NCBI GenBank assembly: GCA_964387845.1
Contig: CAYLXA010000001.1
Location: 192,001-256,000 of the forward strand
Source: an uncultured bacterium
GTDB taxonomy: Bacteria > Omnitrophota > Omnitrophia > Omnitrophales > Abzuiibacteriaceae
Direction of reading: 5' to 3'
Length of the DNA stretch: 64,000 nt
Part shown: positions 47,506 through 63,428 of the stretch, piece by piece
Layout: the number at the start of each line of letters is the position of its first letter
Numbering within the stretch: the stretch's first letter is position 1
Position numbers and translations under genes: made by a program
The notes under the pieces: generated by a model
Told to the model about the DNA's origin: nothing
What the model saw: only the letters and a program-made list of their open reading frames with translations
The model's database searches: none

Positions 47506-48296
47506 CAGCCCGGCCTTCCCAAACTTTCAATACCAAGCTGCATCTCGCGCATATATTTAAGACGCTCCCGCTCGAAGCGCTTTTCATCGCGCGACACTTG
47601 CTCTAATTTGGTTGCTTCAACCTCAAGCAACTTGGCGAATATTTCCTGATTCTCTTGCGTAACGACAATCAATTTTCCGGAGGCATCCGCTGAAAGTCTT
47701 GCCGCCCCTTTTGGACTTGCCGTCTGCGATAATTCTTGAATGGTCTCGCCCGCTTGCTTTGTTTCATCTGAGCGCTTTCTAATTTCATGCGCCATTAAGT
47801 AAGCTTCGCCCACCTGCGATTCATCAAATGTGATATAGGGACGCTCCACAGATTGAGGGTCCATTCCATGAATGGTTTCAATATAGGACTTGATGCCTGA
47901 CGGGTCGCCGTAACCTTCAAGTATGGTCCCCAAATTTCGGATGGCGTCTTGTTCAACGGACGGTTCGAATCCAGCAAGGAATCCATCCCGAAATGTCGAC
48001 TGTGAATCTCTGAAGGCCCGCGCCGCATCCTGGACAAAACTTCTCACGAATTCTTCGATGCCAGCGTTAAAGCGCATCATTTCCTGATACGTGTTTTCAA
48101 GTTCCGTAAGCTGATCGAATAATACGATAATTTCCTGTGCAAACTGATTTTCCATCAAGGAATTGCGAAGTTCATTCAGCGCGGCATTGACAAAATCAAT
48201 CACAGGCAGATCCGCCTTCGCTGTGCCGGGGCAGACGGCTAGGCTTGCTGCTAAGTAAAGCGAGATGACCGTCAACCTTAATTTTGGTGATTTCAT
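47505..48296 (-). CDS. T4SS VirB5/TrbJ-like secreted coiled-coil protein
   Basis: Signal peptide, helical region; 263 aa; synteny after VirB4. Confidence 0.45.
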   Translation of the reverse strand: MKSPKLRLTVISLYLAASLAVCPGTAKADLPVIDFVNAALNELRNSLMENQFAQEIIVLFDQLTELENTYQEMMRFNAGIEEFVRSFVQDAARAFRDSQSTFRDGFLAGFEPSVEQDAIRNLGTILEGYGDPSGIKSYIETIHGMDPQSVERPYITFDESQVGEAYLMAHEIRKRSDETKQAGETIQELSQTASPKGAARLSADASGKLIVVTQENQEIFAKLLEVEATKLEQVSRDEKRFERERLKYMREMQLGIESLGRPG

Positions 48297-50773
48297 ATGG
48301 CAGGAGCCTCCTTACGCCACGTGATTCCTCGCGGATATTTACCCGCGAGTATTCTCAGCCGTTCCAACTCACTCAAACTTGGCTCCATTGCGCGGAGCCT
48401 TTCCTCCTCGATTTGGTCGTTGGGCTCTGTTGTTGCAATCCAGTAGTCAAGGGGCGAGGGCTCAAGCTTAGCCGTGACAGCTTTGTTAAAAAACTTGATG
48501 AAGATTTCGGAGAAAACACCGGGCCTTATTTCCAATTCTTCGCAAGCGCTGACCTCATTCGGATTCAGGTCAAACTTAGACAGCAATTCATGCCCCTTTT
48601 GAAGCTTTAAAATGTATTTCACGTAGGAATTGGAAAGAATGGCGGGTGCCGCCTTTGATTGAAGAAAATCCACAGGGCTTTGGCTGATTGAAAGAACGAG
48701 ACCGTTTGTCTTTCTGGCTGTTCTGTAAAGCTCTTCAATCAGCTTTGAGCCGACATCGTCATTAAAAAAGCGCCATCCTTCGTCAATGACAATGATTTTG
48801 CGGAGCGAAATGTCACCCAGTTTTCTAGCAATGGCGGATCGGATCACAAAAAAAAGAATGGATTGCAGTTCAGGGTGCTGTGAAAGCTTGCCCAAGTCAA
48901 AAACAATGAATCGGTTATCAAAAGTCAGGCTGCTTTGCCGGTTCAAGAGCCTGCCAAAGCGACCTTCGGTCCACATGCTTAAATTCTTTGAGAATTGATA
49001 CGCTTTCCGCTTGTCCTCGTCATCACCCGCCGCATAATTTCGAAGAATCATTTGCACATCGCCCAAAAGAGGTCGGTGTGTATCCTGAATGCTTTCGTAG
49101 ACTTTCAGAATTGATTGTTCAAGAATTCGAAGCTCTGAACTTTTCACTCTCTCCCTCTCAGAGACCATCTTTTCAAGCAGGGTGCTCAGAAAACCTAAAA
49201 GATCGGCGTTCACTTCGCCGGGCTTTGGGAATAATTGACGTTTCTCAGGAAATAGGTTAAGCGCATATTCTTCCGTGCAGTCGATTTGCAAGTAATGACC
49301 GTCAAATAAACGCGCAAGTTTTTTATAACTGCCGCCCATATCGATTACGATAACGTGATTCCGATCTCCTGCGATGAGAAAACTGCTCAGCAAATGATTC
49401 GCAGTGAATGACTTCCCGGAACCCGTGCTCCCAATCATGACTGCATGCTTCGCCGGAAGCGACGGATCAAAAAGATTAAGCGCAAACCCTTCGTCTTCGT
49501 GAGTTTTGAGCAAAATATCGAAGTCATCCGTTCCCTTCCATTCTTCCCCGAGCGGCAATAGATGGCTCAATGCGCCTGTTAAGACAGGAAACACGGATTG
49601 ATTTTGATCGGCCTGCAGGGGTAAATGTGACAGAAACAACGTGTCATGCTCCAAATGATCGAAGATTCCGACTGAGCCGCCCAGTTTCGGGAAAGCTTTC
49701 AAAACAGCTTCCTTCTTACGAGCAAGCGCCGCTTCGTCCTTTGCCTTAATGAGCACAGAAAGCGAGATATCAAAGACGCTTTCGCCTTGCTCGGCCATTT
49801 GATGAAGAAATGATTCGTATTGGGACGCCTTTTGCCTTGCAAAGTGATCCTCTGAAATCCGGAAGAAGGCGTTTGCGTGCGCGAAATTGGCTCTGATTCG
49901 AAGCTTGCCAATTTCTTTGTCCTGGTCTTTCTTCCTAAGAGTAATCATCCATTCTGAATCATCCGGCATAAGGCGATCAAATGACTTAATCATTTTCAAG
50001 CCGACATGGCCGGGCAGCGTCCTTAAATTAGCAGCCGAATGAAAATAACCGTCCATATAAAGCGAATTTCTGTAAATTTTGGGCGGATGAAGCAAGAGCC
50101 GCGACCTCAGCGTTTCAAACTTGGGATTGGTTAATGGATTCTCCTGAAACGCGTCTTCGTATCGGACAATCTGAGATAGTGAAGGATTAAGTTTCCTGTA
50201 GTACTCGCGGATAACGTCCATTGCGGAAAGTCTCTCGACCGTGACACCCAAGGCCTTCAACGCCGTGATGATCAACGACTCAGCTTGAAGCAGATAAGCC
50301 TTGCCTTCTTCATGATTTGAGCGATGAAATGATCTTGACCGCTTCCGTTTTTTCTCAGGGCTTAAATGGCTTAAAAACAAAAAAATTTCCTTTTTTACCA
50401 AACGCGAATTTGTTAGTACATTTACTTTCTCCCGCACGATCACGTTGACCAATGGGTCTTGGCGTGAGGTGTTCGCTTGACACCTCCCGAGCATCTCATC
50501 GTCGCCCCGGCTTGAGCGTTTAACGAATGACAATAAAATCCCTGAGGGCAGCCGATTCAGCAGTTTCTGAAGTTCATGCATGAACGCGACTATTTCGGCG
50601 TCATCATAAAGAAGGTAATCAACACCTGAAACTTTATAGACAAGCGCCATTCGCCCTGAAACCCCGACGGCTAAGCCATCTTCTTCAACAGCCATGAGAT
50701 CAAGTGCCGGGAAAAATGGAACGCGTTGCAGTGAGTCGCTCAATTCTTTAATCGTCAGCAATGTTTCCATCAA
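48293..50773 (-). CDS. T4SS VirB4/TrbE ATPase
   Basis: 826 aa; Walker A MIGSTGSGKSF, Walker B IVIDEGW; CagE/TrbE/VirB4 organisation. Confidence 0.9.
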   Translation of the reverse strand: MMETLLTIKELSDSLQRVPFFPALDLMAVEEDGLAVGVSGRMALVYKVSGVDYLLYDDAEIVAFMHELQKLLNRLPSGILLSFVKRSSRGDDEMLGRCQANTSRQDPLVNVIVREKVNVLTNSRLVKKEIFLFLSHLSPEKKRKRSRSFHRSNHEEGKAYLLQAESLIITALKALGVTVERLSAMDVIREYYRKLNPSLSQIVRYEDAFQENPLTNPKFETLRSRLLLHPPKIYRNSLYMDGYFHSAANLRTLPGHVGLKMIKSFDRLMPDDSEWMITLRKKDQDKEIGKLRIRANFAHANAFFRISEDHFARQKASQYESFLHQMAEQGESVFDISLSVLIKAKDEAALARKKEAVLKAFPKLGGSVGIFDHLEHDTLFLSHLPLQADQNQSVFPVLTGALSHLLPLGEEWKGTDDFDILLKTHEDEGFALNLFDPSLPAKHAVMIGSTGSGKSFTANHLLSSFLIAGDRNHVIVIDMGGSYKKLARLFDGHYLQIDCTEEYALNLFPEKRQLFPKPGEVNADLLGFLSTLLEKMVSERERVKSSELRILEQSILKVYESIQDTHRPLLGDVQMILRNYAAGDDEDKRKAYQFSKNLSMWTEGRFGRLLNRQSSLTFDNRFIVFDLGKLSQHPELQSILFFVIRSAIARKLGDISLRKIIVIDEGWRFFNDDVGSKLIEELYRTARKTNGLVLSISQSPVDFLQSKAAPAILSNSYVKYILKLQKGHELLSKFDLNPNEVSACEELEIRPGVFSEIFIKFFNKAVTAKLEPSPLDYWIATTEPNDQIEEERLRAMEPSLSELERLRILAGKYPRGITWRKEAPAI

Positions 50774-51033
50774 ATTTCCTCCCGTGTCTGTGTGAAATAG
50801 GCGGGCATGAAAAAATAACGAATCAAATTCTTAGTAAACCTGTCTGCCTTATTCCTTTTGTAATATCTGAGAAATAAATAGACCGCGAAGACAAATGAAA
50901 GATTGACCATGAGATTCTTTGAGCCGAGAAAGACCATAAGATAGACCGCTAACAAACCAAGCAAGTCCATCCATTCAAGACCGAAGAATTTGTTTTTTTG
51001 TGTAATCATTGGATACATCGTTATTGGCTTCAT
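50770..51033 (-). CDS. T4SS VirB3/TrbD-like small membrane protein
   Basis: 87 aa with two TM helices; translationally coupled between the VirB2-like and VirB4-like genes. Confidence 0.55.
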   Translation of the reverse strand: MKPITMYPMITQKNKFFGLEWMDLLGLLAVYLMVFLGSKNLMVNLSFVFAVYLFLRYYKRNKADRFTKNLIRYFFMPAYFTQTREEI

Positions 51034-51034
51034 G

Positions 51035-51337
51035 CTAAAACCCCGTCACATTCTTTATTAAGTCAAGCACTGCTCGGGCAAGCATAATGAGCGCTCCGCC
51101 CCCTGCTGCCAGGGCACCGCGCCTCATGCCTTGTTCATTTCCAAGCGCCATTGAAATACCAGATACCGCAATTCCGATCACAAGTATTCCAGGACCTACG
51201 CTCTGTATTAGAAAAGTCCCAACAGCATCCAGGAAATAGCCCAACTCTTCTTGATTCTGCGCCTCCGCATACGCAATGCCCGCGTGAAGATAAATAGCCG
51301 TCAGTATCACAAGATATTTCGCAATCATTTTCCGCAT
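51035..51337 (-). CDS. T4SS pilin VirB2/TrbC-like; start taken at the internal ATG (MRKMIAKYL)
   Basis: Long signal peptide ending AYA, then two hydrophobic helices (GILVIGIAVSGISMALG / ALAAGGGALIMLARAV) typical of conjugative pilins. The track start at 51430 is a TTG. Confidence 0.6.
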   Translation of the reverse strand: MRKMIAKYLVILTAIYLHAGIAYAEAQNQEELGYFLDAVGTFLIQSVGPGILVIGIAVSGISMALGNEQGMRRGALAAGGGALIMLARAVLDLIKNVTGF

Positions 51338-51412
51338 ATATTCACCTTGGGGGATAGCGGGGTCAATTTTGACCCCGCCCTTTGGAACAGCCGCATGCGC
51401 TGTAAAAGTCCC

Positions 51413-51456
51413 CTCATAGATGTTGTGCAAAAACGGGCATTTCGTAACAAGAAATT
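51413..51456. promoter_or_regulatory. Conserved ~45-nt element (copy 1), ~75 nt upstream of the pilin gene; candidate promoter/operator
   Basis: ctcatagatgttgtgcaaaaacGGGcatttcgtaacaagAaaatt is about 90% identical to 58630-58674. Confidence 0.5.
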
Positions 51457-51468
51457 TAAAATCCCATC

Positions 51469-51837
51469 TTAAAATTTATTTTTCAGTATCTGGATTCCCA
51501 CATATTTCTTGAGTTTGGTCGCAGCCCTGCGTATATGCATCCGTACGATCGCGCTATCTGAAATATTCAACTCTTCTGCTATTTCCAGATTGCTCAATCC
51601 TTGCAATGTTAATCTGACGCACTCACGCTCTCTCTTAGACAGCCCGGCACGACTTATGGCTCGTCTTGCCATTTCTTTCTGTTCATTTTCAATCAGCACC
51701 TCGACCGGCGAGGGCTGAGTGGCCACCTTCTTCAGAATTTCTTGATGCAAATCGGTTTTTGGGTCATTTTCGATCTTCTGAAAATCGACACCGATACGCA
51801 CCGTTCTCTTTGTTTTCCATTGAGTGTTGTTTTCCAT
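51469..51837 (-). CDS. LuxR/GerE-type HTH transcriptional regulator
   Basis: C-terminal LSKRERECVRLTLQGLSNLEIAEELNISDSAIVRMHIRRAATKL; 122 aa. Confidence 0.7.
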   Translation of the reverse strand: MENNTQWKTKRTVRIGVDFQKIENDPKTDLHQEILKKVATQPSPVEVLIENEQKEMARRAISRAGLSKRERECVRLTLQGLSNLEIAEELNISDSAIVRMHIRRAATKLKKYVGIQILKNKF

Positions 51838-51997
51838 TTTCCACCTCCATATGGTGGAAAATGGGCGAATACCTCCTTCTATAACTCTTTAACTAATAAA
51901 TACTTACGATAATTTTATAGGCGAATATACGGATAGACACAAAAAAAGACACCTGTAAGCGGACGAGGGCGGAAGGAATTCCGCCCTCGTTTCACAC

Positions 51998-52312
51998 TTA
52001 ATTCCTAATCCTCCGGATTGTTGAGATCCAAGCTTGAAGATCGCGATTCAAGAATCGCAACCGTTCAGCAATGTTTGCCATTGGAGGCTTCTGCTCGATG
52101 ACCTCAATACTCTTTGCGCCTGCCGAATTCGGCTGTCTGGCTTGGAGCCATCCCGCAAACGATTGGGCAAAGAAGCAAATTGCTAAGACCACCGGAGCGA
52201 TGAGAAACATTAAATTGATAAAGGCAGCCAGCATGCACTTCAGCAAGAAAATGGTGAAATTCCGCAGCCTGCCTAATGCCTTTTTTATTTCGGTTAGAAT
52301 GAATTGTTTCAT
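51998..52312 (-). CDS. Hypothetical membrane protein
   Basis: 104 aa with one or two TM helices; no recognisable domain. Confidence 0.35.
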   Translation of the reverse strand: MKQFILTEIKKALGRLRNFTIFLLKCMLAAFINLMFLIAPVVLAICFFAQSFAGWLQARQPNSAGAKSIEVIEQKPPMANIAERLRFLNRDLQAWISTIRRIRN

Positions 52313-52324
52313 TTTGAATTATCC

Positions 52325-53362
52325 TTATACGAGTTGATATTGCCGGTTTTGAATTTCCAAGTTACTTTCCTCCTTTTCGTACTCCGTTAGATAATCAAAG
52401 CTGCAATCTTCACAGAATGAGCCGCCGGTTGCTTCGTCATAAAAGAGTTTGCCGGCTTCCACTTGGTCTTTACACAGTGAACATAGAAGCTTTGATTTTT
52501 CAGTGATGTTTGAATCTTCGAGAAATCCCATATACCGAAGCTCATCAAAGCTGTAGAGATAGGGATTCCCCGGCACTTTGAAGTCATCCTCTGTGAGCGA
52601 CTTGCGCATCGGGTTCTCCATCTCGCAAGGTATTTTTCGCATGGGACATTTTTCAGAAAGTTCTTCAACGTTAATTTTGTAAAGCACGTTGGATTGAATC
52701 TCGAGAAAATTGCCTTTCATGAAGTTTCTTGCAAGAGCGTATTGCAAGTGGATTTTCTCGCTCGACCAAAGCAAGGTTTTGAACTTAGGGACATAAACAG
52801 CGTAAAGCGTCCGTTCAACATTTCGGATGAGATAAAGCGTTTTCCTGTCATCCGTTTGCATGAATGCCAACGCAAAATCCCCAAACATCATCGAAAGCCG
52901 TTCAGCGACTTCTCTGTCGGAGGAGGCGCCATCCAAAACACGGAATACCGCCTCGCTATCGACGTCAGTTTTTTGCTCCGTGTTAAATCGTTTGAGAAGT
53001 TCAGTTCGATTTAGAAAATGCCCATTGTGCACACCGGCAAAATTCTCCGAGACAAACGGATGACAATTCCGGGATGAGATTGCTCCTACTGTGGCAAGCC
53101 GCGTATGGCCCAGAACAATGAGCGTATCCGCACCGATTTTCTTGATGACGTTACGCATCCGGACGGTGCGCAAAAGCTCGCTCGCTGGTCTGGCTTCCTT
53201 GAAAACGGTCATGCTCTCTTCTGCTGCTGTGAGCAATCCAGTTCCGTCTTGACCTCTTGTTTCATTGAGAAAAGCCAAATCCATCACTACGCCTTGAAGC
53301 CTCAGTTTCTCTGCTCCGCTTAAGGGCAGGGCCTCTCTCACAAATCCGAATATTCCACACAT
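52325..53362 (-). CDS. Class-II (Ntn) glutamine amidotransferase domain protein with C-terminal Cys-rich zinc ribbon
   Basis: N-terminal MCGIFGF, the Cys-2 nucleophile hallmark of GAT-II/Ntn hydrolases; ...HTRLATVG...NCHPF; C-terminus CSLCKD...CEDCSFDY. Confidence 0.65.
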   Translation of the reverse strand: MCGIFGFVREALPLSGAEKLRLQGVVMDLAFLNETRGQDGTGLLTAAEESMTVFKEARPASELLRTVRMRNVIKKIGADTLIVLGHTRLATVGAISSRNCHPFVSENFAGVHNGHFLNRTELLKRFNTEQKTDVDSEAVFRVLDGASSDREVAERLSMMFGDFALAFMQTDDRKTLYLIRNVERTLYAVYVPKFKTLLWSSEKIHLQYALARNFMKGNFLEIQSNVLYKINVEELSEKCPMRKIPCEMENPMRKSLTEDDFKVPGNPYLYSFDELRYMGFLEDSNITEKSKLLCSLCKDQVEAGKLFYDEATGGSFCEDCSFDYLTEYEKEESNLEIQNRQYQLV

Positions 53363-53410
53363 GGTAAGTCTCCTTAGGTTTAATTGGGATTGAACTACTG
53401 AAGTGATAAA

Positions 53411-54685
53411 TTACTTTTGAACAGCTGCCAGAGTGGGAGCTGTTTCGAAGAACTTCTCGGGATGAAACTTTAAGATCCTTTGCTCGATGTAATTCCGAAT
53501 CTTCGTCCGGAATTTCAGCAGCACGCAGAATGCCTCAAACTGTTCTTTGAATGAAGCAAACTCCGAAAACCTGAAGTCTCTTTGACGCTTTGACTCGTCT
53601 ACGATCGCTTGGCAGATCACAATGAAATTTGTAATCTTAAGCGGGTTCGTTGTTCCCGAGTGATAGCGAAACTCCACTGAACGCCTGAAGAACCAAGAGT
53701 GAATGTTGACACCGAAGTATCTTGAGTTGTCAAACTTAGACTTCGTATCCACTCGCGCATTCCTTCTGCCGTACCAGAGCCGCTTTAAATCCATCTCATC
53801 TTTGACTTTGAACCGGAACCGTGATTTGGGAAATCGATTGAGCGGCACGGAGTAAGAACCGGAAAACCTTGATTCCGGAAGCATGGCATAAATCACCGGC
53901 TCAAACGCCACCGCAATCTTCAGCAATTTCTTGATGTTCTGAAAATCAAGATCCCGCCCATCAATGTGGACATGAAGACCGCAGCGCTTGTCCACGAAGT
54001 AATTCCAGTCAAGCAGCTTTTGAGTGAAAATGGCGATTTCGTTAAAGCCGTCATCGCCTTGAAGAATCGGGCTCGCAAATTCCATGCCCCAATCTCCCAG
54101 AGAGCCGTCATGCTGTTTGCTCCAAGCGCCCACTTCATCAACCGGAAGATGCATTTCCTCATCCCGAAGTATGGCTTCAATTTCCACGCCGTATTTTCTT
54201 TTTGATTTGCACAGTTTGAATTTAGCCGACGAAAATTCATGGTGCTGAATCAGCTCGCCGTTCTCCACCATGCGGTCGTAACAGTCTTCACAGTAAGTTG
54301 ACTCCCCTCTTCTAAAGCAGCGGGTAGAGTCAACCTCAGAACCGCAATCCTCGCAGAAGATTATGTTTTCAGATTCACAGGCGGAGCAGTAATAGACGTC
54401 CTGCAAATCTGAATAACGAGCGTCCTCTGACGCCGCATATTCCCCGCAGGCATTGCATTCCCTGTAATTGGCGTGAAAGCAGCTTTCACAAAGCCTCAAC
54501 CCTGCAACTGCAAAGGATTCGTCAAGCCACATGGGACGTTCGCATTTCCCGCACGGCTTCACACGTTTTTCAAAACACGCCGGGCAAAGATACCGGTCTT
54601 GATAGGTTTTAAACAAATCGACGTTTACGACAACACTGCAGGACGGGCATTTCTTTTCTTCTGCCCGTATTTCCAAAAGTTCCAT
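53411..54685 (-). CDS. Putative amidoligase (glutamine-synthetase/GCS2-like, Amidoligase_2-type) with N-terminal array of six CxxC zinc ribbons
   Basis: N-terminal 150 aa contain CPSC, CPAC, CGKC, CESC, CNAC, CSAC, CEDC, CEDC pairs. The C-terminus has YGVEIE, GLHVHIDG and VEFRYHSGT motifs reminiscent of the amidoligase family. Confidence 0.5.
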   Translation of the reverse strand: MELLEIRAEEKKCPSCSVVVNVDLFKTYQDRYLCPACFEKRVKPCGKCERPMWLDESFAVAGLRLCESCFHANYRECNACGEYAASEDARYSDLQDVYYCSACESENIIFCEDCGSEVDSTRCFRRGESTYCEDCYDRMVENGELIQHHEFSSAKFKLCKSKRKYGVEIEAILRDEEMHLPVDEVGAWSKQHDGSLGDWGMEFASPILQGDDGFNEIAIFTQKLLDWNYFVDKRCGLHVHIDGRDLDFQNIKKLLKIAVAFEPVIYAMLPESRFSGSYSVPLNRFPKSRFRFKVKDEMDLKRLWYGRRNARVDTKSKFDNSRYFGVNIHSWFFRRSVEFRYHSGTTNPLKITNFIVICQAIVDESKRQRDFRFSEFASFKEQFEAFCVLLKFRTKIRNYIEQRILKFHPEKFFETAPTLAAVQK

Positions 54686-54709
54686 GGCTCATCTCCTTTT
54701 CTATTGTTT

Positions 54710-54898
54710 TCAAACTGTCTGGTGATCTTGGCTTTGGTTTTTAACTGACATGCGATCTCTGCGCTTTCGCTCATAGAGACGCTTTAATATCCACAAGGGA
54801 ACGAACGTCCAATACCCTCTTGGCCTTCCTGTCCACTCCGAAAGCTGGTCCGCATAAACTGATTTGTCTTCTGAGTCAAAAATGATGTAGGGATTCAT
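54710..54898 (-). CDS. Small hypothetical protein (62 aa)
   Basis: AAGGAG RBS directly after a hairpin; sequence MNPYIIFDSEDK... Confidence 0.35.
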   Translation of the reverse strand: MNPYIIFDSEDKSVYADQLSEWTGRPRGYWTFVPLWILKRLYERKRRDRMSVKNQSQDHQTV

Positions 54899-54965
54899 GG
54901 CAAGCTCCTTAAGTGAGAGGGCGGAAACTTTTTATTTCCGCCCTCTTTGTGTGACATGGCTTTGA

Positions 54966-55061
54966 TCAGCGCAGGACAATGGCCCAGCCGAACCGAACAA
55001 AATCTGTAATAAGATCCGGCATCAGCATTGCTTTGGCGCGTGAAACAATCAGCGTCTTCAT
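54966..55061 (-). CDS. Candidate 31-aa peptide MKTLIVSRAKAMLMPDLITDFVRFGWAIVLR
   Basis: Hand-translated; strong RBS AAAGGAGGT 8 nt upstream; flanked by two related GC-rich hairpins. Confidence 0.3.
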   Translation of the reverse strand: MKTLIVSRAKAMLMPDLITDFVRFGWAIVLR

Positions 55062-55141
55062 GGAATAAACCTCCTTTGAAAAGACAAAGGGCGAAGAATC
55101 GCTTCTCCGCCCTTTGCTTAATAGTTTGATCGAAGTTCTTA

Positions 55142-55369
55142 CTAGCTGACTTGGACTTGCTGTTCAGCTCTGCGCAAACCTTCAATCAGTTCGCCGATGA
55201 GCGCACAGTTAATTGTGACGCCTTTCTTCGTCGGCCGCGCTTCGCCCGTTACGGCATCAGCGAAAAAGACCCTGACATCAACGTAATCACGGTCTTTGTA
55301 CTTGCCGACTGAGATTTTAACTTCTTCGTTTTCATTACGTTTAAAACTGTAAATTTCCTGCTTTTCCAT
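55142..55369 (-). CDS. PC4/YdbC-like ssDNA-binding protein (paralog 2)
   Basis: 75 aa; ...VGKYKDRDYVDVRVFF...KKGVTINCALIGELIEGL is the PC4-like pattern; AAGGAGA RBS. Confidence 0.5.
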   Translation of the reverse strand: MEKQEIYSFKRNENEEVKISVGKYKDRDYVDVRVFFADAVTGEARPTKKGVTINCALIGELIEGLRRAEQQVQVS

Positions 55370-55454
55370 TTGAATTCTCCTTTTTTTGATTTAATGTTGG
55401 TTTATTTGAGCTTTAGTGTTTGGTCTCTTTCGCTTGAACCTCCTTTCTAAGAAC

Positions 55455-55499
55455 AAAAAAGGGGAAGAAGCCTGCTGAACAGACCTCTTCCCCTCTTTT
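55455..55499 (-). terminator. Rho-independent terminator downstream of the coupling-protein gene
   Basis: aaaaaaGGGGAAGAAGcctgctgaacagaCCTCTTCCCCtctttt; flanked by a 15-nt direct repeat ttttgatttaatgtt (55384-55398 and 55496-55510). Confidence 0.65.
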
Positions 55500-55536
55500 G
55501 ATTTAATGTTAAATTAGGACTTAATTAGCGATTAAC

Positions 55537-57360
55537 TCATCGTTTGGCTCCTCTTATCTTTTCAAATTTATGCGCAGTATCACTGAGCGTTTGAAACTGA
55601 TCGCTTTCGTCTTGAACGATTTCAGGCTTTGCGCTTTCACGTTTCCAATGCTCTGTTGCCCGCTCACGTTCATCTTTAATCTTCATGTGTATCCATGTTA
55701 AATTAATGTCTGTTTCAGAGGACAGCCGCAGATAATCAATTTTAAAACTTGGATATTTCATGACAACAATCGCTTCGCCGCGTCCAAGTGAACGAACCAA
55801 GTCAGGGTCGATGCGAAACGTCTGCGCTTCTCTGACAGATCCTCGCCCTGTCATGTCTGTGCCGAGCATGCCGGATTCAGTCTGATACGTGGAAACAAAA
55901 GTTCTTCGGGAGCCTCCAATTTTTGAATATTTGTCAATCGAGAATGGGTCATCCTGACGCATGATGATTTTTACGTTTGTGTTCTCGAGGATTTGCTGCT
56001 GAAAGGTCATGCGCTTCGCCGCGAGGTCAGCCAGGCTTTGGTGAAGAAGCGTTACAGCAAGTTTGGCGCCGCGCGCTTTATTCATGAAATCGATGAAGTT
56101 CTCGTAGACAAAGCTTGAAAATTCATCCACGTACACAGGAAAAAAGTGCCGCTCACCCTCTTCCATCTGCGTTTGAATGTAGTTGGAAACTGTTTTAATG
56201 TCCTGCAGGATGAGACGCCCGAATCTTTTCGCCGTTTCTTCGTAGCCCTGCGTATTGAGTGCGAAATAGACAATTTTATTCTTCTGATAAACCTCTAGGA
56301 GGTCAATTTTTGATTCCTGAGAATCCGTCAGTCTTGAAAACTCTGATTTAGTTACGAGGCCTAAATCCGCGATGAATCCAGAGAGAAACTTGGTATTATC
56401 ATGAAACATGTCTTTCATGACTTCCAAGTCCTTCGACATCCGGATATCGTCAAGCTGCGCTATCAGCGCTCGTAATTGATTCTTGTCCGTTAAAAGCTCA
56501 TACAAATCCCGGAACCTGACTTTTCTGTTCAAACTCACCAAAGCTCTGAGCAATGTCAATGCGGCTTCTTCCGCCTTTTTTCTGTAAAATTCCTCGCGCC
56601 ATTCAGTAGAGCCGATCAGTTTGTCCTTAATCTCTGATGCGTTTCCGCGCAAGAGTGGGTTGTATGTGTCCGATATTTCCGGATGTGATAGCGAGAAGAA
56701 TAGAAAGTCATCTTTCCTGCCGTTAATTTGAACAAAGTAACGAATCTTCGCCAATAATTCCAAATCGCCCTTGGCGTCCACGACTATCGCCCCGCGGCCT
56801 CGCTCGATATCCCTTTTAAGCAGCGGAAGCATGACTGATTCTGTTTTACCAACGCCCGTTGAACCTACAACATGCGTATGCATGAGCCTCATGTCATCCG
56901 TTAAGTAACAGCCCTTGCCCGACCAATAACTCGTACCCAGATAAGCTTGATTCGCCTCAACCGCCGTTTTTTGCTTCGTGATTTCTCTCGAAGAAATTCT
57001 CTTCAATCTGCGTTTCTTATCGTCAGAGGATGTATCTTTCGAATTCTTCATTGCATATCCCGTCAACATGAAAAACGGCAATGTAATCAACAAATAGGCG
57101 CTGTAGAGGCACGTAGCCGCGACTCCCGCTTTCGTCCAAGGTCTCGCCTCAAACCTTTCAACAAACCCATTTAAATATTTAATTGACCAAATGGTCGTAA
57201 GCGCTGCAAGCAAGGTGCTCAAATAAGCTATTATCTTGACCCAAGAACTAGATTGATTCTTGACCCATCCGTCAAGCTTCTTGCCCAACCATACCGGAAC
57301 GGATACGAAAAGGAATTCAAACGTTGACCCCGTAAGGCCCTTTGACGGCTTCTCATTCAT
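55537..57360 (-). CDS. Type IV coupling protein (VirD4/TraG/TraD family)
   Basis: Two N-terminal TM helices; Walker A VVGSTGVGKTES, Walker B-like IVVDAKGDLE, and the TraG/VirD4-like C-terminal all-alpha region; 607 aa. Confidence 0.8.
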   Translation of the reverse strand: MNEKPSKGLTGSTFEFLFVSVPVWLGKKLDGWVKNQSSSWVKIIAYLSTLLAALTTIWSIKYLNGFVERFEARPWTKAGVAATCLYSAYLLITLPFFMLTGYAMKNSKDTSSDDKKRRLKRISSREITKQKTAVEANQAYLGTSYWSGKGCYLTDDMRLMHTHVVGSTGVGKTESVMLPLLKRDIERGRGAIVVDAKGDLELLAKIRYFVQINGRKDDFLFFSLSHPEISDTYNPLLRGNASEIKDKLIGSTEWREEFYRKKAEEAALTLLRALVSLNRKVRFRDLYELLTDKNQLRALIAQLDDIRMSKDLEVMKDMFHDNTKFLSGFIADLGLVTKSEFSRLTDSQESKIDLLEVYQKNKIVYFALNTQGYEETAKRFGRLILQDIKTVSNYIQTQMEEGERHFFPVYVDEFSSFVYENFIDFMNKARGAKLAVTLLHQSLADLAAKRMTFQQQILENTNVKIIMRQDDPFSIDKYSKIGGSRRTFVSTYQTESGMLGTDMTGRGSVREAQTFRIDPDLVRSLGRGEAIVVMKYPSFKIDYLRLSSETDINLTWIHMKIKDERERATEHWKRESAKPEIVQDESDQFQTLSDTAHKFEKIRGAKR

Positions 57361-58088
57361 CCCAAGATGGAGCGTAGAGGAATTCTGGATGCCTTATTCA
57401 TCAGCTCCGCATCTTTCTTTTTCAGTAAGAGCTCATCATAGAGCACAAAGCAAAGCTTATTCTGAGGAACTTCAATGTCCAATAGCCAGCTCTTCACCAT
57501 GTGCCAAGACAGGATATAAATCACCAGGGTGAAATCATTTAGACGGCTGTATTTCGCAAACCTTGTCTCATACCTTTCCCGTTCCCTGAAGGAATTTTCA
57601 AGTTCAATCGCAATTCTCTGCCCGCTTACTTCGATGACCGCGTCAGGAAAAAATTCCCGGTCGTGCTCTTCTTTTCTGACAACCCGTTCGCTCAGCCATT
57701 TAACACCCTTAAAGTCCCGAAACAGGCACCGCAACGTCGCCAACTTGAGCGTATGCTCTATCGTATATTGGTTGATATCCCCGATTTCTCCAAAGCCACG
57801 GTCCAGCCCTTTCTCTTTCAAGACATCTATCCCCTCAGCCGTCAGCAGAAAAAGTCTCACTTTTTCTGATTTCGCCTTCTGGACATCCAAAGTCCTAATA
57901 AATCCTGCATCAACAAGCTTGCTCAAACGCTGCCTTGCAGTTCCTGACCTCACTTCGCTGTCAGGCCAAAATGCCGAGTAAATTTGATTCGCCATCATGT
58001 ACTTTTGTTCATTCAAGTACGTGAATATCTCGATATCACGCTCTGTAATGACGACACGCCGCAATTTATCCAATAAGTTTTCAGCCAC
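57357..58088 (-). CDS. Replication-relaxation family protein (winged-helix N-terminus); candidate non-canonical relaxase/accessory factor
   Basis: N-terminal wHTH ERDIEIFTYLNEQKYMMANQIYSAF...RQRLSKLVDAGFI; 243 aa; translationally coupled to the coupling-protein gene. Confidence 0.4.
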   Translation of the reverse strand: MAENLLDKLRRVVITERDIEIFTYLNEQKYMMANQIYSAFWPDSEVRSGTARQRLSKLVDAGFIRTLDVQKAKSEKVRLFLLTAEGIDVLKEKGLDRGFGEIGDINQYTIEHTLKLATLRCLFRDFKGVKWLSERVVRKEEHDREFFPDAVIEVSGQRIAIELENSFRERERYETRFAKYSRLNDFTLVIYILSWHMVKSWLLDIEVPQNKLCFVLYDELLLKKKDAELMNKASRIPLRSILG

Positions 58089-58141
58089 AGATTCACTCCC
58101 TCGCCATGGAAAGCCGGTTGGGCCCTTCCATGGCTTGCGAA

Positions 58142-58549
58142 TTACCGAATGGCCAGATCGGCCATTTTCCTCGCTAGATTTCTTGTTTCACTGACCGTAT
58201 TGCCAATGCTCCTTAAGTCATCCCTCAAGTTCAGCTGCCTATCCTTAAACCGATTTGGCGTCTTTGGCGCTTGAACAGGCTTCATCTGATAAACTTTTGG
58301 GGCTACCGTCAAACGAGCCTCCCTTGCCGCTGGTTCAATCTTACTCACACCCGCCTCAGCGTCTTTTGTCCATTGCAATTTCATGACCTGTTTTACGAGA
58401 TAAGCAGGCAGAGTCAGCCCTATTGCCGTTGACCCGATGATCATCCAGCAAGAAATACTGATACTTACAAGCTTAACTCCTAGTTTTCTCAGCTTGAGAT
58501 CCGTACGATCAACCGTTTCACTGACTTGCTTTTCAATTTCTTTCAACAT
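58142..58549 (-). CDS. Hypothetical membrane protein
   Basis: 135 aa with one TM helix; preceded by the conserved 45-nt element. Confidence 0.35.
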   Translation of the reverse strand: MLKEIEKQVSETVDRTDLKLRKLGVKLVSISISCWMIIGSTAIGLTLPAYLVKQVMKLQWTKDAEAGVSKIEPAAREARLTVAPKVYQMKPVQAPKTPNRFKDRQLNLRDDLRSIGNTVSETRNLARKMADLAIR

Positions 58550-58629
58550 TGTGGAACTCCTTATGTGGAAGCTTTATCGCTTCAAGTCTTTCATCCAAGT
58601 TTATGCTTGGCGGTTTCTGTTTATTTTTC

Positions 58630-58674
58630 GAAATGTTCTCTCATAGATGTTGTGCAAAAACAGCCATTTCGTAA
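58630..58674. promoter_or_regulatory. Conserved ~45-nt element (copy 2), ~80 nt upstream of the 58142-58549 gene
   Basis: ctcatagatgttgtgcaaaaacAGCcatttcgtaacaagCaaatt; see copy 1. Confidence 0.5.
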
Positions 58675-58761
58675 CAAGCAAATTCAATTAACAGATGGAA
58701 AATATTTTTTTATGTCTATTAATGAACTCAATTCATTCAACTCACCACTTCCTCACGAGCA

Positions 58762-58852
58762 CCTGTCCAAAAACCCTATCTCTCTACACACACCACACCC
58801 ACTGACAAGTACCCCTCGATTACGGATGGGAGAGATAGGGTTTTTGGACGGG
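58762..58852. repeat. Long perfect inverted repeat (20-bp arms, extendable to 23 bp with one G-U pair, 45-nt loop); candidate oriT or structured RNA
   Basis: 58765-58784 gtccaaaaaccctatctctc and 58830-58849 gagagatagggtttttggac; lies in the 455-nt non-coding gap between the STAND gene and the relaxation/T4CP block. Confidence 0.6.
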
Positions 58853-59004: not shown

Positions 59005-62000
59005 TTATATAGTAGCCTCTGCGTCTTGGGTAAGCTCTTGTTTCATTTGTTCATCGCCGTAATTTCCAACATCTAAATAAAATTGATGCGCAGGGTGTTC
59101 TACACTAAAAAGCTTTGCGGTTTCCTTACCGCGAGTTGCTAGATTTTGGCTCTTTGCTGAGACTTCTCCAAATGACCTTGATGATCCCCCGCTAATTGCT
59201 ATTCCAAATAGATTGGATTTTACACGTTTAAGGCATTCAGCAGATTTATTTGAAGCCAATAGAATCAACTCTCCAACAAAAGCGTGCTCGTTAAATATAA
59301 AATTATCCTCCGCGTCTCTGACTAAAAGAGATATGCCCACAAGTTTATTTACAGTAGGATTTTTAAACCACTCTTTTAATATAGCTAAAGATTTAGCCGA
59401 ATACCCATCTGAAACTGCCCGAAAAAGCTTTTCAAGCCAAAAACGATCCGCTGTTTTTGCTAAAGACAGATTTCGAACTACTCTTACGTGCTTCTCATAT
59501 CCCATCATCGTGGAAATACCTTTATAAGCAGTGTCAAATCCTAAATACGGAAGGGGCGTATAATTTTCTCTTCTTGTAAGTTTTTTGACGGGCTTAGTTG
59601 ATTGACTATATAAATAGCGTGCAACTAAAAACTCAACGGCTGCCTGCGGATATTTTCTACAAACAAAAGAAAGGAATTCCTCAACATGGAAATCCTGCCG
59701 TTCAAAGATGTTAAATTTAACCAATTTGCTTAATAAGGATTTTAATTCGGTTTCATTCAGCTTAGAAAATGGAATGCCATAGTTCTCATTATAAATTTCA
59801 AAAAATTGGTCGAGCACTATTCCTCTTTCTTTCAAATCAATGCCCACAGCAAGTTTCTTAGCAGCTTCCGCATCAACCTGCCCTAGTTTTTGAAGTGCCT
59901 GAAGCGCCGTGCCAAAAATATTGTCGTTGCTATGTTTGAGTAAATACCCTACATTCTGGATATCCTCTTTAAAGGGTTTTTCTAAAAGGCCGCCCCAAGC
60001 GTAGGCATGAGCAATGTTGTGGTAGACGATTTGCCTTTTTGTTTTTAGTCCTTGTTTAATTAACGCCCTACTGATTTCTCGATAACTTTCCAATCCATTC
60101 AAGGGCCATAAAATTGATGAGCAAAATTTTTCCACTTCACCATTCTTTCTAGCGAGGCAAAGCTTAAATAATTTTACGGCGAAATCGGGATTGAGTTTTG
60201 TAATTTGAGAAAGAAGGTAATTGGGGTTAGCTGATCTTTTGTAGTGATTTAAATCGCGTAATCTTTTTTCTAAAACCATTAACAACTGACGAGGATTCTT
60301 AGCCTGTTTCAATAAGATTTCAGCTACCCCGCTCACCTCTTTTGCCGTTATTTCAGTTTGTTTACTAAAATCATGCTTTTTATTAACAAATTCTTCGAAA
60401 TCGTGAGCTATCGCACGGACAAGACGATATTCGAAATTCTCCGGTATAAGCTCATAAATACTTTTGATTTTTTTCTTTAATTCGTCGTGCCTTCCAAACA
60501 AACTAAACCAACGAAGTTGCGATCTTACGGCAAGTCGGAAACAGGACGACTTAATGATCTTTAATTTTCTTTTAACCAATTCGAGAATTGATAACTGTTC
60601 TGGCAAATAAACATCTTGCTCTGACTTTCCAGCGCGACGACCGTATAGTCCATGAGAATAGCTCAATGCTTTTAAGAGAGTATAAAGAGCTTCCATTAAC
60701 ATCTTTGGCGGGGCATCCGGTTGGATGAAGGAGCCAAGTAATTCTATAGTGCTATTACGCAAGTTTTTCACGGCTTCGTAATTTAAAGGCAAAGACCTGA
60801 AGGACATGCTTCCTTCATCGTACGAAGACTCTTCAATCTCTTTCGCGAGGAATTCTTCCAAAATATTCAAAGGTGTATAACGGTAAATAAAGTTATTTTT
60901 CTTGGCCACGGTTTCTTTAAGGAAGGCAAAAACTTTCTTATTGTAAACAAGGGGCTTTCCGACTTGATATTCAGCCAACTCTTTTAAGATTCTAACGGAA
61001 TGCTGCGGATGAGGATTTAATTCTCTTTCGTCAGTTTTTGCAATTTCCCAGAGAATTTTACAGGCAGGAGTGACATATTCTAAATTAAAGGCTATCTTTT
61101 TTAATATAGATGGAATTTTTTCCAATACATGACGATGCTTCCAGAAATCTCCATATAATTGCTTCTTAGGATTAGGGCGTGCGGGCGCTTTAATGGCGTG
61201 GTTTACTAGCTCTAATGCTTTATCAGGTTGATAATACGCCGACTCTTCGATTTCTTCCAAGATTTTAGTTCGCTCATAATGATCAGCTTTTCTAAAATCT
61301 TCGTGGATTTTTTTCCAAACGGAACTTAAAAGATCTACATTCAAGGCATTTTTTCTTGCTCGCCACTCTACTTCAGAAATATTTTTAAGAATGTTTTTTG
61401 CTAGAGTTGATTTAAATTTCTCATACACATGATCAGCAAATTTAGTGCTTGAGCCATCTTTGGCAATACAGGCTGAGTGAAGAATATGATCACTCAATAA
61501 ATCAGGAGCAAGCCTTGCCAACGCTCCGCGTCTTATCAAAACCCCTTTTTCTTCCATCGCATCAAATGCTTTGACAATATCAAAAACAGGACACGCAAGA
61601 AGTTCGGACAATTGTTTCCGTAACTCCTCGTTATTCAATCTCACTGGGGCAAGCACAGAAAGATATTGAAGAAGCTTATCTGCTAATCCCGGATTGGAGT
61701 AATTTTCTCCTTTAAGTTCATCTATAAATTTATCTAAAACGGTTCTTTGAAATTCATCGCTTTTGCTTATTTTGTATGGATGCAGCTTTTTATCGCGAAT
61801 TAATTTGCTGGCAATTACCGCTGCCAGGGGGCAGTCTCTGGTCATAGCCACGATATATTTAATCAGGCCAGAATCATGTCCGACAATGCTTTCAACGATT
61901 TCTTCTAAATCAACCTTTTTCAAATCACTTAACTCCGGAGGCCGTTCGATTTCGTTTAACAAAAGATTTGTATGCGCCAATACACTATCGACAAATTCTT

Positions 62001-63071: not shown

Positions 63072-63428
63072 TCACGCTGAGGAATTATCAAGTGAAATCG
63101 ATAAGAGCCAATGGCCATTGTGCTGATTTTTGATTTTTTTAAGATTTTCATACCGTTTAAACAAATCATCCGGCAAACGTTCAAGGGCGTTTTCGATATG
63201 CTTATTGACAGTCTTTGGCTTAATTTTCATGGCTTGAGCGATTTCCTTCCGCTTCATGAAAAGCGAGAGAATAAAAGACGCCTTCTGGCTTGCCGTCAGC
63301 GAACGGAATAAGACCGGAGAACGGGGATTAATCTTTTCAGAGAACACGCGAGAGTTTGATTGGTCTCGCTCCTGCTCTCTGACAAGTTGTTCTAATTCCG
63401 GTGAAAACTTTTTAAATTGTTTTGGCAT
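63072..63428 (-). CDS. Small sigma-70 region-4-like HTH regulator
   Basis: LTASQKASFILSLFMKRKEIAQAMKIKPKTVNKHIENALERL; 118 aa. Confidence 0.5.
   Translation of the reverse strand: MPKQFKKFSPELEQLVREQERDQSNSRVFSEKINPRSPVLFRSLTASQKASFILSLFMKRKEIAQAMKIKPKTVNKHIENALERLPDDLFKRYENLKKIKNQHNGHWLLSISLDNSSA

What the first reader, a model, noticed from the sequence alone, without database searches (positions are those of the whole stretch)
51413..58674. Two copies of a conserved ~45-nt element placed 75-80 nt upstream of the pilin/T4SS operon and of a second ICE operon
ctcatagatgttgtgcaaaaac-N3-catttcgtaacaag-N-aaatt occurs at 51413-51456 and 58630-58674 with only ~4 mismatches, while surrounding DNA is unrelated. 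Both copies have the same orientation relative to the downstream minus-strand genes. This looks like a shared promoter/operator for element-encoded regulators (the LuxR-type gene at 51469-51837 sits immediately upstream of copy 1), enabling coordinate control of transfer genes.
Basis: seen in the sequence. Interest (0 to 1): 0.55.

Follow-up and report, generated by a model that had tools for sequence, protein, structure and literature searches.

The report
Shared control region of two transfer operons
A roughly 76-base sequence sits in front of both the DNA-processing operon and the pilus/secretion operon of an integrated conjugative element, and comparison with related elements indicates it is a shared, regulator-specific promoter region that switches the two transfer operons on together.

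Summary
The repeat is real. It has two copies, both reading on the minus strand, at 51408-51483 and 58635-58710.

Each copy lies upstream of a transfer operon of an integrative conjugative element (ICE). Copy 1 is 75 nt upstream of the pilin/VirB3/VirB4 operon. Copy 2 is 90 nt upstream of the 135-aa/relaxase-like/coupling-protein operon.

In all eight related ICEs where both regions were visible, a similar element occurs at these same two positions and was found nowhere else in the fetched DNA. Two copies within one ICE are near-identical from about -45 to +8, and similarity falls to background outside. Between ICEs an upstream block differs. A core is kept: a T-tract, then TAT(A)G, then a purine run.

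The strongest evidence is a natural swap between L012 and L017. These two ICEs are 80-100% identical in DNA, but the helix-turn-helix (HTH) half of the small LuxR/sigma-region-4-type protein encoded just upstream of copy 1 has been replaced. Both element copies changed in parallel at about -32 to -24.

Nothing has been mapped experimentally.

The core has no sigma-70 geometry, although the host tRNA promoter is canonical. Which RNA polymerase form reads it is unknown.

This is a known regulatory logic (TraR/tra box, SetCD) in an undescribed ICE family.

The parts
51408..51483 (-). Element copy 1 (pilin/T4SS side). Reading on the minus strand: distal A/T tract plus AAGATGGGATTT (51457-51483, overlapping the stop codon of the regulator gene); specificity block CTTGTTACGAAATG (51438-51451); 3 variable nt (51435-51437); core GTTTTTGCACAACATCTATGAG (51413-51434); purine run GAGGGGAC (51408-51415).
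58635..58710 (-). Element copy 2 (relaxase/coupling-protein side). Specificity block at 58665-58678, variable nt at 58662-58664, core at 58640-58661, purine run GAGAGAAC at 58635-58642.
51469..51837 (-). GerE-1, 122 aa: a stand-alone LuxR/GerE / sigma-region-4-type HTH protein. It is the proposed specificity factor for the upstream block. Its gene ends inside the distal part of copy 1, with no terminator in between.
   Evidence: Pfam GerE 2.4e-11 and Sigma70_r4_2 1.2e-07; family profile best matches NarL/GerE DNA-binding domains in the PDB; AF2 model with fold matches to sigma region 4 and LuxR-type domains; HTH/block co-variation
51035..51337 (-). TrbC/VirB2-type pilin gene, the first gene of the mating-pair-formation operon driven from copy 1. 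It is followed by TraL/VirB3 (50770-51033), TraC/VirB4 (48293-50773), and further genes up to VirB9 (44991-46007) and VirB10 (44084-44980).
51338..51415 (-). Pilin-operon leader. The 5' purine run pairs with a pyrimidine run just 5' of the Shine-Dalgarno sequence and encloses a GC-rich hairpin. The same architecture is seen in 8 loci, with matching sequence variants on both sides of the helix.
55537..58549 (-). DNA-processing operon driven from copy 2: a 135-aa membrane protein (58142-58549), a Replic_Relax relaxase-like protein (57357-58088) and a TraG/TraD-type coupling protein (55537-57360). It ends at a strong terminator (55456-55498).
58550..58642 (-). Relaxase-operon leader, 93 nt from the core G to the ATG. 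It contains twin hairpins at 58595-58610 and 58568-58583.
63072..63428 (-). GerE-2, 118 aa: a second small LuxR/sigma-region-4-like protein. In L012 and L013 its orthologue lies directly upstream of the relaxase-side element. In the window a STAND NTPase gene (59005-62919) separates them. Its role is unknown.

Best explanation
The two copies are the regulatory regions (promoter plus operator) of the ICE's two transfer operons. Each has two functional parts.

1. An asymmetric, lineage-specific block lies about 24-36 nt upstream of the end of the core. This is where a -35 element would sit. It is the recognition site of the HTH of GerE-1, the small LuxR/sigma-region-4-type protein encoded just upstream of copy 1.
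2. A family-wide core consists of a T-tract, a short variable stretch, (C/T)TAT(A)G and a purine run. Transcription is inferred to start at or just before the purine run.

Because both operons carry the same site, one regulator controls DNA processing and pilus/secretion genes together. Activation is the more likely direction, because the core lacks a usable sigma-70 -35/-10 pair.

Shown here: the repeat and its limits; its conservation at exactly these two positions across the ICE family; concerted evolution of the two copies; co-variation of the block with the regulator's HTH; the absence of RNA structure and of sigma-70 geometry.

Inferred: binding, the transcription start, the direction of regulation, and which RNA polymerase form is used.
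For: Occurrence and limits
- Exactly two copies are in the window, with none expected by chance.
- Similarity is confined to about -70..+8.

Conservation across the family
- The same two-copy arrangement, upstream of the 135-aa/relaxase/T4CP operon and of the pilin/VirB3/VirB4 operon, is found in L007, L009, L011, L012, L013, L015 and L017. The ends of the L016 contig fall in the two copies.
- Coupling-protein identity to the window ranges from 75% down to about 46-50% across these loci.
- Within one ICE the copies are 0.76-0.83 identical (0.62 in L011). Copies from diverged ICEs are 0.43-0.67 identical.

The regulator
- A GerE-1 orthologue is always the gene immediately upstream of the pilin-side copy.
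- GerE-1 is a LuxR/sigma-4-type DNA-binding protein.

Natural swap between L012 and L017
- The flanking DNA, the core and the leaders are 80-100% identical.
- The N-terminal half of GerE-1 is 78% identical, but the HTH half is only 32% identical.
- Both element copies read TTCTGTGGAGACCCC in L012 and TGCTACGGAAmCCCC in L017.
- W versus L009 differ at the same positions, about -32..-28 and -24.

Other observations
- The 61-nt element has no RNA fold (z = +1.1) and no Rfam match. This favours a DNA-level signal.
- The purine run is part of the folded pilin leader in 8 loci, with matching variants: GAGGGGA/UCCCC, GAGAGGA/UCCUCUC and GGGAGGGC/GCCCUCC.
- The relaxase-side leader has a nearly constant length of 79-93 nt. 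Both points fit a start at the 3' edge of the core.
Against: - No transcription start and no protein binding has been mapped.
- The core has no sigma-70-like -35/-10 pair at 16-18 bp spacing, while the host tRNA promoter is canonical, TTGAAT-17-TATAAT.
- If transcription starts at the purine run, the -12..-7 stretch is the least conserved part of the element and is C-rich in some lineages. How the DNA is opened is therefore unexplained.
- The block has no dyad symmetry, which is unusual for LuxR-type dimers.
- The HTH/block co-variation rests on one clean sister pair plus looser comparisons.
- On the pilin side the block is physically adjacent to the HTH-coding DNA, so only the relaxase-side copy counts as an unlinked change.
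- GerE-2 or another factor could be the true binder.
Confidence: 0.65

Rival explanations
1. The site and binder are the same, but GerE-1 is a repressor. It would sit over the -35 region of two promoters that are otherwise active, and transfer would be induced when it is removed.
For: A protein bound at about -35..-24 can block RNA polymerase. Stand-alone LuxR-type proteins such as B. subtilis GerE both activate and repress (own knowledge). The co-variation shows specificity but not direction.
Against: Neither copy has a recognisable sigma-70 promoter that could be active unaided, although the host uses the canonical consensus. The regulator gene lies directly upstream with no terminator before copy 1. 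That layout suits positive feed-forward.
Confidence: 0.2
2. The core is a promoter for non-standard transcription machinery. Candidates are a dedicated single-subunit (T7-like) polymerase, or host core polymerase redirected by sigma-4-only adaptor proteins. The conserved core would be the polymerase recognition sequence.
For: The layout resembles T7/SP6 promoters (..CACTATAGGGAGA, own knowledge): a T-rich tract at about -18..-14, a lineage-specific stretch, TAT(A) at about -4..-1, G at +1 and a purine-rich start. Examples are CTATAGGAGAAC in L010 and CTATAGTGAGAGAAC in L013. There is no sigma-70 or sigma-54 geometry (and inspection). The purine run is transcribed.
Against: No polymerase-like gene was seen in the ICE part of the window or in the ICE DNA covered by any related locus (Pfam; gene tables). 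GerE-1 and GerE-2 have no sigma region 2. The 104-aa and 135-aa neighbours are membrane proteins.
Confidence: 0.1
3. The element acts as RNA. Transcription would start further upstream, for example from the regulator gene's own promoter, and the conserved sequence would be a processing site or a protein-binding leader that defines stable 5' ends for the two operon mRNAs.
For: No terminator separates gerE-1 from copy 1. The sequence just 3' of the core begins a conserved leader fold. In W, L007 and L009, CAUCU can pair with the Shine-Dalgarno region.
Against: The element has no structure of its own (z = +1.1) and no Rfam match. The block co-varies with a DNA-binding HTH domain. The distal part overlaps coding sequence. 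Copy 2 is preceded by an inverted repeat and variable cargo, not by a conserved upstream gene.
Confidence: 0.08
4. The repeat is a DNA-processing or recombination site, such as a second nick site or a remnant of duplication, and not a transcription signal.
For: Copy 2 lies about 55 nt downstream of a conserved 20-bp inverted repeat next to the relaxase operon. L003 carries four tandem copies.
Against: Copy 1 has no adjacent inverted repeat, because coding sequence abuts it. Two nick sites in direct orientation would split the element on transfer. The orientation and distance to the downstream start codons are conserved in every lineage. Similarity has sharp limits and has been maintained over deep divergence.
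Confidence: 0.03

Closest known systems
TraR / tra box control of Ti-plasmid conjugation (Agrobacterium)
   Same: A LuxR-family HTH protein encoded by the element recognises the same operator in front of the Dtr (DNA transfer and replication) operons (traAFBH/traCDG) and the Mpf (mating-pair formation) operon (traI-trb). In class II promoters the box overlaps the -35 region (PMC3907764).
   Different: [quoted passage not shown] Here the block is asymmetric. GerE-1 is 122 aa, with only an HTH domain and a short N-terminal extension. The core lacks sigma-70 elements. The two operons are co-directional and 7 kb apart.
SetCD (SXT/R391 ICEs) and AcaCD (IncC plasmids) regulons
   Same: A master activator encoded by the element binds a conserved box near the -35 element of several transfer promoters, giving coordinate activation (PMC4344509; PMC8373056, listed).
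   Different: SetCD and AcaCD are FlhDC-like heteromers with a 19-bp box at many promoters. Here the factor is a LuxR/sigma-4-type protein, only two sites were found per ICE, and a further roughly 25-nt invariant core extends to the inferred start site.
B. subtilis GerE, and sigma region 4 bound to -35 DNA
   Same: These are the closest sequence and fold relatives of GerE-1: a small HTH domain that contacts promoter DNA around -35.
   Different: GerE works with sigma-K holoenzyme on sporulation promoters, and sigma region 4 is part of a full sigma factor. GerE-1 has no sigma region 2, and its partner polymerase form is unknown.
T7/SP6-type phage promoters
   Same: A roughly 20-nt conserved sequence ends in TATA, followed by G and a purine-rich initial transcript. 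Specificity positions differ between related elements (own knowledge; sequences).
   Different: No single-subunit polymerase gene was found in the window or in any related locus. An additional -35-like block co-varies with an HTH protein.

Membership tests
Shared activator-box transfer promoters (TraR/tra box, SetCD, AcaCD type) | The same cis motif lies upstream of two or more transfer operons of one element, in a fixed orientation. | tested here: met
   Two copies in the window. The same arrangement is seen in 8 related ICEs.
Shared activator-box transfer promoters (TraR/tra box, SetCD, AcaCD type) | An element-encoded transcription factor binds the motif. | not testable with these tools
   Only indirect support is available: conserved synteny of the regulator gene and HTH/block co-variation in L012 versus L017.
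Shared activator-box transfer promoters (TraR/tra box, SetCD, AcaCD type) | The box lies at or near -35 of a mapped transcription start. | not testable with these tools
   No start site data exist. If the start is at the purine run, the specificity positions fall at about -32..-24.
TraR / tra box specifically | An 18-bp operator with dyad symmetry, and a regulator with an N-terminal autoinducer-binding domain. | tested here: not met
   No dyad in CTTGTTACGAAATG or its variants (inspection). GerE-1 has only GerE/sigma-r4 Pfam hits and is 122 aa.
Sigma-70 housekeeping promoter | -35 and -10 hexamers at 16-18 bp spacing, with A at position 2 and T at position 6 of the -10. | tested here: not met
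   No hit at either copy. The host tRNA promoter scores 10/12. TTGTTA-17-CACAAC lacks the invariant T, and this stretch is not conserved in other lineages.
Sigma-54 promoter | GG-N10-GC (TGGCAC-N5-TTGC). | tested here: not met
   By inspection: copy 2 has GG-N8-GC, copy 1 has no GG, and L012-type cores have no TTGC.
T7-like single-subunit RNA polymerase promoter | A cognate single-subunit RNA polymerase gene in the same element. | tested here: not met
   No RNA_pol-type Pfam hit and no unexplained ORF of 800 aa or more in the ICE part of the window or in the loci. ICE DNA beyond position 64000 was not seen.
Structured RNA element (Rfam family, antitermination RNA) | A match to a curated family, or a stable conserved secondary structure within the repeat. 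| tested here: not met
   No Rfam hit at the gathering or E<=1 threshold. The 61-nt element folds no better than shuffles, with z = +1.06 and +1.14.
oriT nick region | An inverted repeat immediately 5' of the conserved site at each copy. | tested here: not met
   Copy 1 abuts coding sequence and has no inverted repeat. The 20-bp inverted repeat lies only upstream of copy 2, about 55 nt away.
LuxR/GerE-type HTH proteins (for GerE-1) | A C-terminal four-helix HTH matching PF00196 above its cut-off. | tested here: met
   GerE 43.5 bits against a cut-off of 23.5. NarL and GerE are the top PDB sequence hits. The model has the expected helices.

The most novel reading that the evidence does not exclude
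The conserved core (T-tract, short variable stretch, TAT(A)G, purine run) may be a promoter class that works without a canonical -10 element. It could be read by host core polymerase recruited through the sigma-4-only protein GerE-1, possibly helped by the PC4-like single-strand-binding protein conserved in these ICEs. Alternatively it could be read by a polymerase not yet seen in the fetched DNA. Under this reading, this ICE family of uncultured bacteria runs its transfer genes on a private transcription system with exchangeable specificity modules.
Probability: 0.15. Interest if true: 0.8.

Novelty: new variant of a known kind. Interest (0 to 1): 0.45.

Why it matters
If correct, this gives a compact and testable regulatory map for an undescribed ICE family. 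Its coupling-protein relatives carry source names from Omnitrophota, Nitrospirae and candidate-phyla genomes. The map is one small HTH protein, two identical sites and two operons. The natural swap of HTH and operator in L012/L017 offers a ready-made specificity experiment. The non-canonical core raises the question of how these promoters are opened. In practice the element is also a sequence tag that locates both transfer operons, and it explains why assemblies break there.

Tried and rejected
- Plasmid database search (blastn, distant mode) with 601 nt around copy 1: no match.
- Viral contig scan with the 20-mer core: no match.
- Genome-collection scan with a 23-base pattern: one locus only, L003.
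- Metagenome scan: one related contig with two copies, plus one chance hit in 65% GC DNA, L005.
- Rfam at the gathering and E<=1 thresholds: nothing relevant. Two microRNA models hit the inverted repeat at E about 1, which is noise.
- RNA folding of the element: no structure.
- Split sigma factor idea, with the conserved 104-aa neighbour as sigma region 2: rejected, because that protein and the 135-aa protein have transmembrane segments and no Pfam hit.
- Full sigma factor idea for GerE-1 and GerE-2: rejected. There is no region 2, and the best PDB sequence hits are NarL/GerE. The fold search cannot separate sigma-4 from LuxR-type domains, with all E > 0.001.
- Sigma-54, ECF-type and Bacteroidetes-type geometries, checked by inspection: none fits all lineages.
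- Dyad or direct-repeat symmetry in the upstream block: none is consistent across lineages.
- A third copy upstream of the PC4/amidoligase genes or of gerE-1: none found.
- A plus-strand (antisense) promoter reading: no convincing hexamers.
- Taxonomy of the host through cluster look-up: no names were returned.

Full report
**Observation**

The 22-mer CTCATAGATGTTGTGCAAAAAC is present exactly twice in the 64-kb window, at 51413-51434 and 58640-58661. No match was found in 100 dinucleotide-preserving shuffles, even with three mismatches allowed. In both copies CATTTCGTAACAAG follows after three variable bases (sequences).

Read on the minus strand, which is the strand of all neighbouring genes, the element is CTTGTTACGAAATG-N3-GTTTTTGCACAACATCTATGAG followed by a purine run.

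A profile built from this and related copies hits 51408-51483 (E=3.7e-19) and 58635-58710 (E=2.5e-18). Nothing else in the window scores below E=0.29.

Identity between the two copies, anchored on the G of TATG, is:
- 0.92 from -25 to 0
- 0.85 from -45 to -25
- 0.56 from -70 to -45
- 0.17-0.30 further out on either side

The repeat is therefore about 76 nt long with sharp limits. It is not the edge of a larger duplication.

**Context**

The region belongs to an integrative conjugative element (ICE). The genes were annotated by Pfam.

Copy 1 lies 75 nt upstream of a TrbC/VirB2 pilin gene (51035-51337). That gene is followed by TraL/VirB3, TraC/VirB4 and further type IV secretion genes up to VirB9 and VirB10.

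Copy 2 lies 90 nt upstream of a 135-aa membrane protein gene (58142-58549). That gene is followed by a Replic_Relax relaxase-like gene and a TraG/TraD coupling protein gene, and the operon ends at a strong terminator (55456-55498).

Between the two operons lie a PC4-like gene, an amidoligase/glutamine amidotransferase pair, a 104-aa membrane protein gene, a terminator, and a separately promoted gene for a 122-aa LuxR/GerE / sigma-region-4-type protein (51469-51837, here called GerE-1). The stop codon of GerE-1 lies inside the distal part of copy 1.

A second small protein of the same type, GerE-2 (63072-63428), lies further upstream, beyond a STAND NTPase cargo gene.

The host uses ordinary promoters. 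The tRNA gene at 6798-6870 is preceded by TTGAAT-17-TATAAT.

**What the element is not**

- It matches no Rfam family at either threshold.
- As RNA the 61-nt element folds no better than shuffled sequence, with z = +1.06 and +1.14.
- No sigma-70-like hexamer pair was found at either copy.
- By inspection it does not have the GG-N10-GC spacing of sigma-54.
- Copy 1 has no inverted repeat beside it, so a nick-site reading does not hold for both copies.

**Relatives**

GerE-1 is very rare in the protein collection, with only two clusters found. DNA pattern scans found one genome contig and one metagenome contig.

Homologues of the coupling protein were more useful. Their few source names point to Omnitrophota, Nitrospirae and candidate-phyla genomes. 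Through them I fetched ten related ICE loci.

Both regions were visible in eight ICEs: the window, L007, L009, L011, L012, L013, L015 and L017. In each of these, one element precedes the 135-aa/relaxase/coupling-protein operon and one precedes the pilin operon. No further copy was found in any of the fetched loci.

In L010 and L014 only the relaxase side could be read, and it carries the element. Contig L016 begins in one copy and ends in the other.

Several other assembly contigs (L001, L002, L008) start or stop inside the element. This is what a repeat does to a de Bruijn assembly.

**Pattern of conservation**

Within an ICE the two copies are 0.76-0.83 identical over -50..+8 (0.62 in L011). 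Copies from diverged ICEs are only 0.43-0.67 identical. The two copies therefore evolve in concert.

Three layers can be distinguished.

1. A family-wide core: a T-tract, 6-12 lineage-specific bases, and (C/T)TAT(A)G. Examples:
   - GTTTTTGCACAACATCTATG (window)
   - GTTTTTGCCCAAGACTATAG (L010)
   - GTTTCGAyCCCCCTATAG (L012, L017)
   - CTTTTAGCCCCCTATAG (L013)
2. A purine run just after the core that is specific to position, not to lineage. It is of the GAGGGGA type in front of pilin genes and of the GAGAGAAC type in front of the relaxase operon in most lineages.
3. An upstream block that is specific to lineage and the same in both copies:
   - CTTGTTACGAAATG (window, L007)
   - yTTGCAGTCrAAGG (L009)
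   - TTCTGCGAAAyC (L011)
   - TTCTGTGGAGACC (L012)
   - TGCTACGGAAmCC (L017)
   - CTTGCCGACT (L013)
   - GAAACGAACCTGTTAATTGA (L015)

**The natural swap**

L012 and L017 are sister ICEs. Their DNA is 80-100% identical through the 113-aa gene, the first half of gerE-1, the core, both leaders and the pilin gene.

The C-terminal HTH half of GerE-1 is only 32% identical (27/84), against 78% (45/58) for the N-terminal half. Both element copies, about 9 kb apart, carry the same set of about five substitutions in the upstream block.

The pilin-side block is contiguous with the replaced coding DNA and could have travelled with it. The relaxase-side block is unlinked.

The window and L009 differ at the same positions, about -32..-28 and -24 relative to the core G. 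The window and L007 share both the block and a nearly identical recognition helix.

This is the main argument that the upstream block is read by the GerE-1 HTH.

**Nature of GerE-1**

- Pfam gives GerE (2.4e-11) and sigma-70 region 4 hits.
- A family profile finds NarL and GerE DNA-binding domains first in the PDB, with ECF sigma factors weaker. GerE-2 behaves the same way.
- An AlphaFold model (pLDDT 75, from seven sequences) shows a disordered N-terminus, one extra helix and the four-helix HTH.
- Foldseek matches sigma region 4 and LuxR-type domains alike, none below E=0.001.
- There is no sigma region 2. The conserved neighbouring 104-aa and 135-aa proteins have transmembrane segments, so a split sigma factor is not supported.
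- In L015 and L016 the positional orthologue carries two sigma-4-like HTH domains.

**Where transcription probably starts**

In all eight pilin leaders the purine run pairs with a pyrimidine run just upstream of the Shine-Dalgarno sequence, closing a domain that contains a GC-rich hairpin. The two sides change together: GAGGGGA/UCCCC, GAGAGGA/UCCUCUC and GGGAGGGC/GCCCUCC.

The relaxase-side leader has a nearly constant length, 93 nt in six lineages and 79-86 nt in the others, with two hairpins that show some compensatory changes.

The purine run is therefore transcribed, and the start lies at the 3' edge of the core or upstream of it. If it lies at the edge, the GerE-1 block occupies the place of a -35 element.

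A difficulty follows. The -12..-7 stretch is then the least conserved part of the element and is C-rich in some lineages, so there is no normal -10 element. The layout recalls T7/SP6-type promoters, but no polymerase gene was seen in any locus. This point is open.

**Best explanation and rivals**

The two copies are the regulatory regions of the two transfer operons. A GerE-1-specific operator sits at about -35, and a shared core lies at the start site. This gives coordinate control, probably activation (confidence about 0.65).

Rivals:
- Same site, but GerE-1 represses (0.2).
- Private transcription machinery reads the core (0.1).
- An RNA-level processing or leader signal (0.08).
- A DNA-processing or recombination site (0.03).

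**Comparison with known systems**

The logic matches TraR and its tra boxes on Ti plasmids. There a LuxR-type protein activates Dtr (DNA transfer and replication) and Mpf (mating-pair formation) operons from boxes overlapping -35 (PMC3907764). It also matches the SetCD and AcaCD regulons, where a box lies near -35 of several transfer promoters (PMC4344509; PMC8373056).

It differs in four ways:
- The block is asymmetric, not a dyad.
- The regulator is a bare HTH domain without a signal-binding domain.
- Only two sites were found per element.
- The core lacks sigma-70 elements.

I file it as a new variant of a known kind of control in an ICE family that, as far as my searches show, has not been described.

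Noticed in passing
window 58748-58849 (minus strand): A perfect 20-bp inverted repeat, GTCCAAAAACCCTATCTCTC ... GAGAGATAGGGTTTTTGGAC, is followed by GCTCGTGAGGAAG. An inverted repeat plus a GCTCGG(T/G)GAGGAAG-like box is kept upstream of the relaxase-side element in L007, L009, L010, L011 (partial), L012, L014, L015 and L017. This is a good oriT candidate.
   Followed up: partly
window 58568-58610 (minus strand); loci L007-L017: The leader of the relaxase operon has a nearly constant length (79-93 nt). It contains two hairpins, CCAAG-CATAAA-CTTGG and GAAGC-GATAAA-GCTTC, with compensatory variants (CCCAG/CTGGG, TGGTC/GCCA, CAGC/GCTG) and similar A-rich loops. Their function is unknown.
   Followed up: partly
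window 51338-51415 (minus strand): The pilin leader folds into a closed domain. The 5' purine run pairs with a pyrimidine run next to the Shine-Dalgarno sequence, around a GC-rich hairpin. In L012 and L017 that hairpin is followed by a T run and looks like a terminator or attenuator.
   Followed up: partly
L003 1-461 (CAZBOT010000043.1, MAG labelled Candidatus Saccharibacteria): Four tandem copies of the element, one of them degenerate, lie about 110 nt apart. Each is followed by a different stretch of about 45 nt and an A/T run, upstream of the relaxase-operon leader, and the contig ends inside the first copy. They could be stacked promoters, small RNA units or recombination products. The family's T4SS includes VirB9- and VirB10-type outer-membrane components, which may argue against a Saccharibacteria host, so the taxonomic label may be a binning error.
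   Followed up: no
window 59005-62919 (minus strand): A 1304-aa DUF4062 / STAND NTPase gene sits between GerE-2 and the relaxase-side element and looks like defence cargo. The same slot holds different cargo in relatives: YceI and others in L007, an RHS protein in L014, and helicase/RmuC/SMC genes in L015.
   Followed up: no
window 51469-51483; L007, L009: The C-terminal residues KNKF plus the stop codon of GerE-1 are encoded by the element's distal A/T tract, AAAAATAAATTTTAA. They are conserved in W, L007 and L009 while the preceding residues vary. This is an overlapping DNA-level constraint on a protein end.
   Followed up: partly
L001, L002, L008, L016 contig ends: Short-read assembly contigs start or stop inside the element. 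L008 and L016 span exactly from one copy to the other. These are repeat-induced assembly breaks and could be used to find such ICEs.
   Followed up: partly
L015 21111-21635; L016 10314-10925: In more distant ICEs the positional orthologue of GerE-1 is longer (174 and 203 aa) and carries two sigma-region-4-like HTH domains in tandem.
   Followed up: no
window 55142-55369 (minus strand) and every related locus: A PC4-like (transcriptional coactivator p15 / single-strand DNA-binding) gene directly follows the coupling-protein gene in every ICE of this family that was examined.
   Followed up: no
window 51998-52312 and 58142-58549 (minus strand): The 104-aa and 135-aa proteins share an architecture: an N-terminal helix, a transmembrane segment and a C-terminal basic helix with an RDL-like motif. 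They may be paralogues. Neither has a Pfam match.
   Followed up: no
L005 3733-3752: The 20-mer core also occurs once in unrelated 65% GC metagenome DNA. None of the flanking element sequence is present, so it is taken as a chance match.
   Followed up: yes
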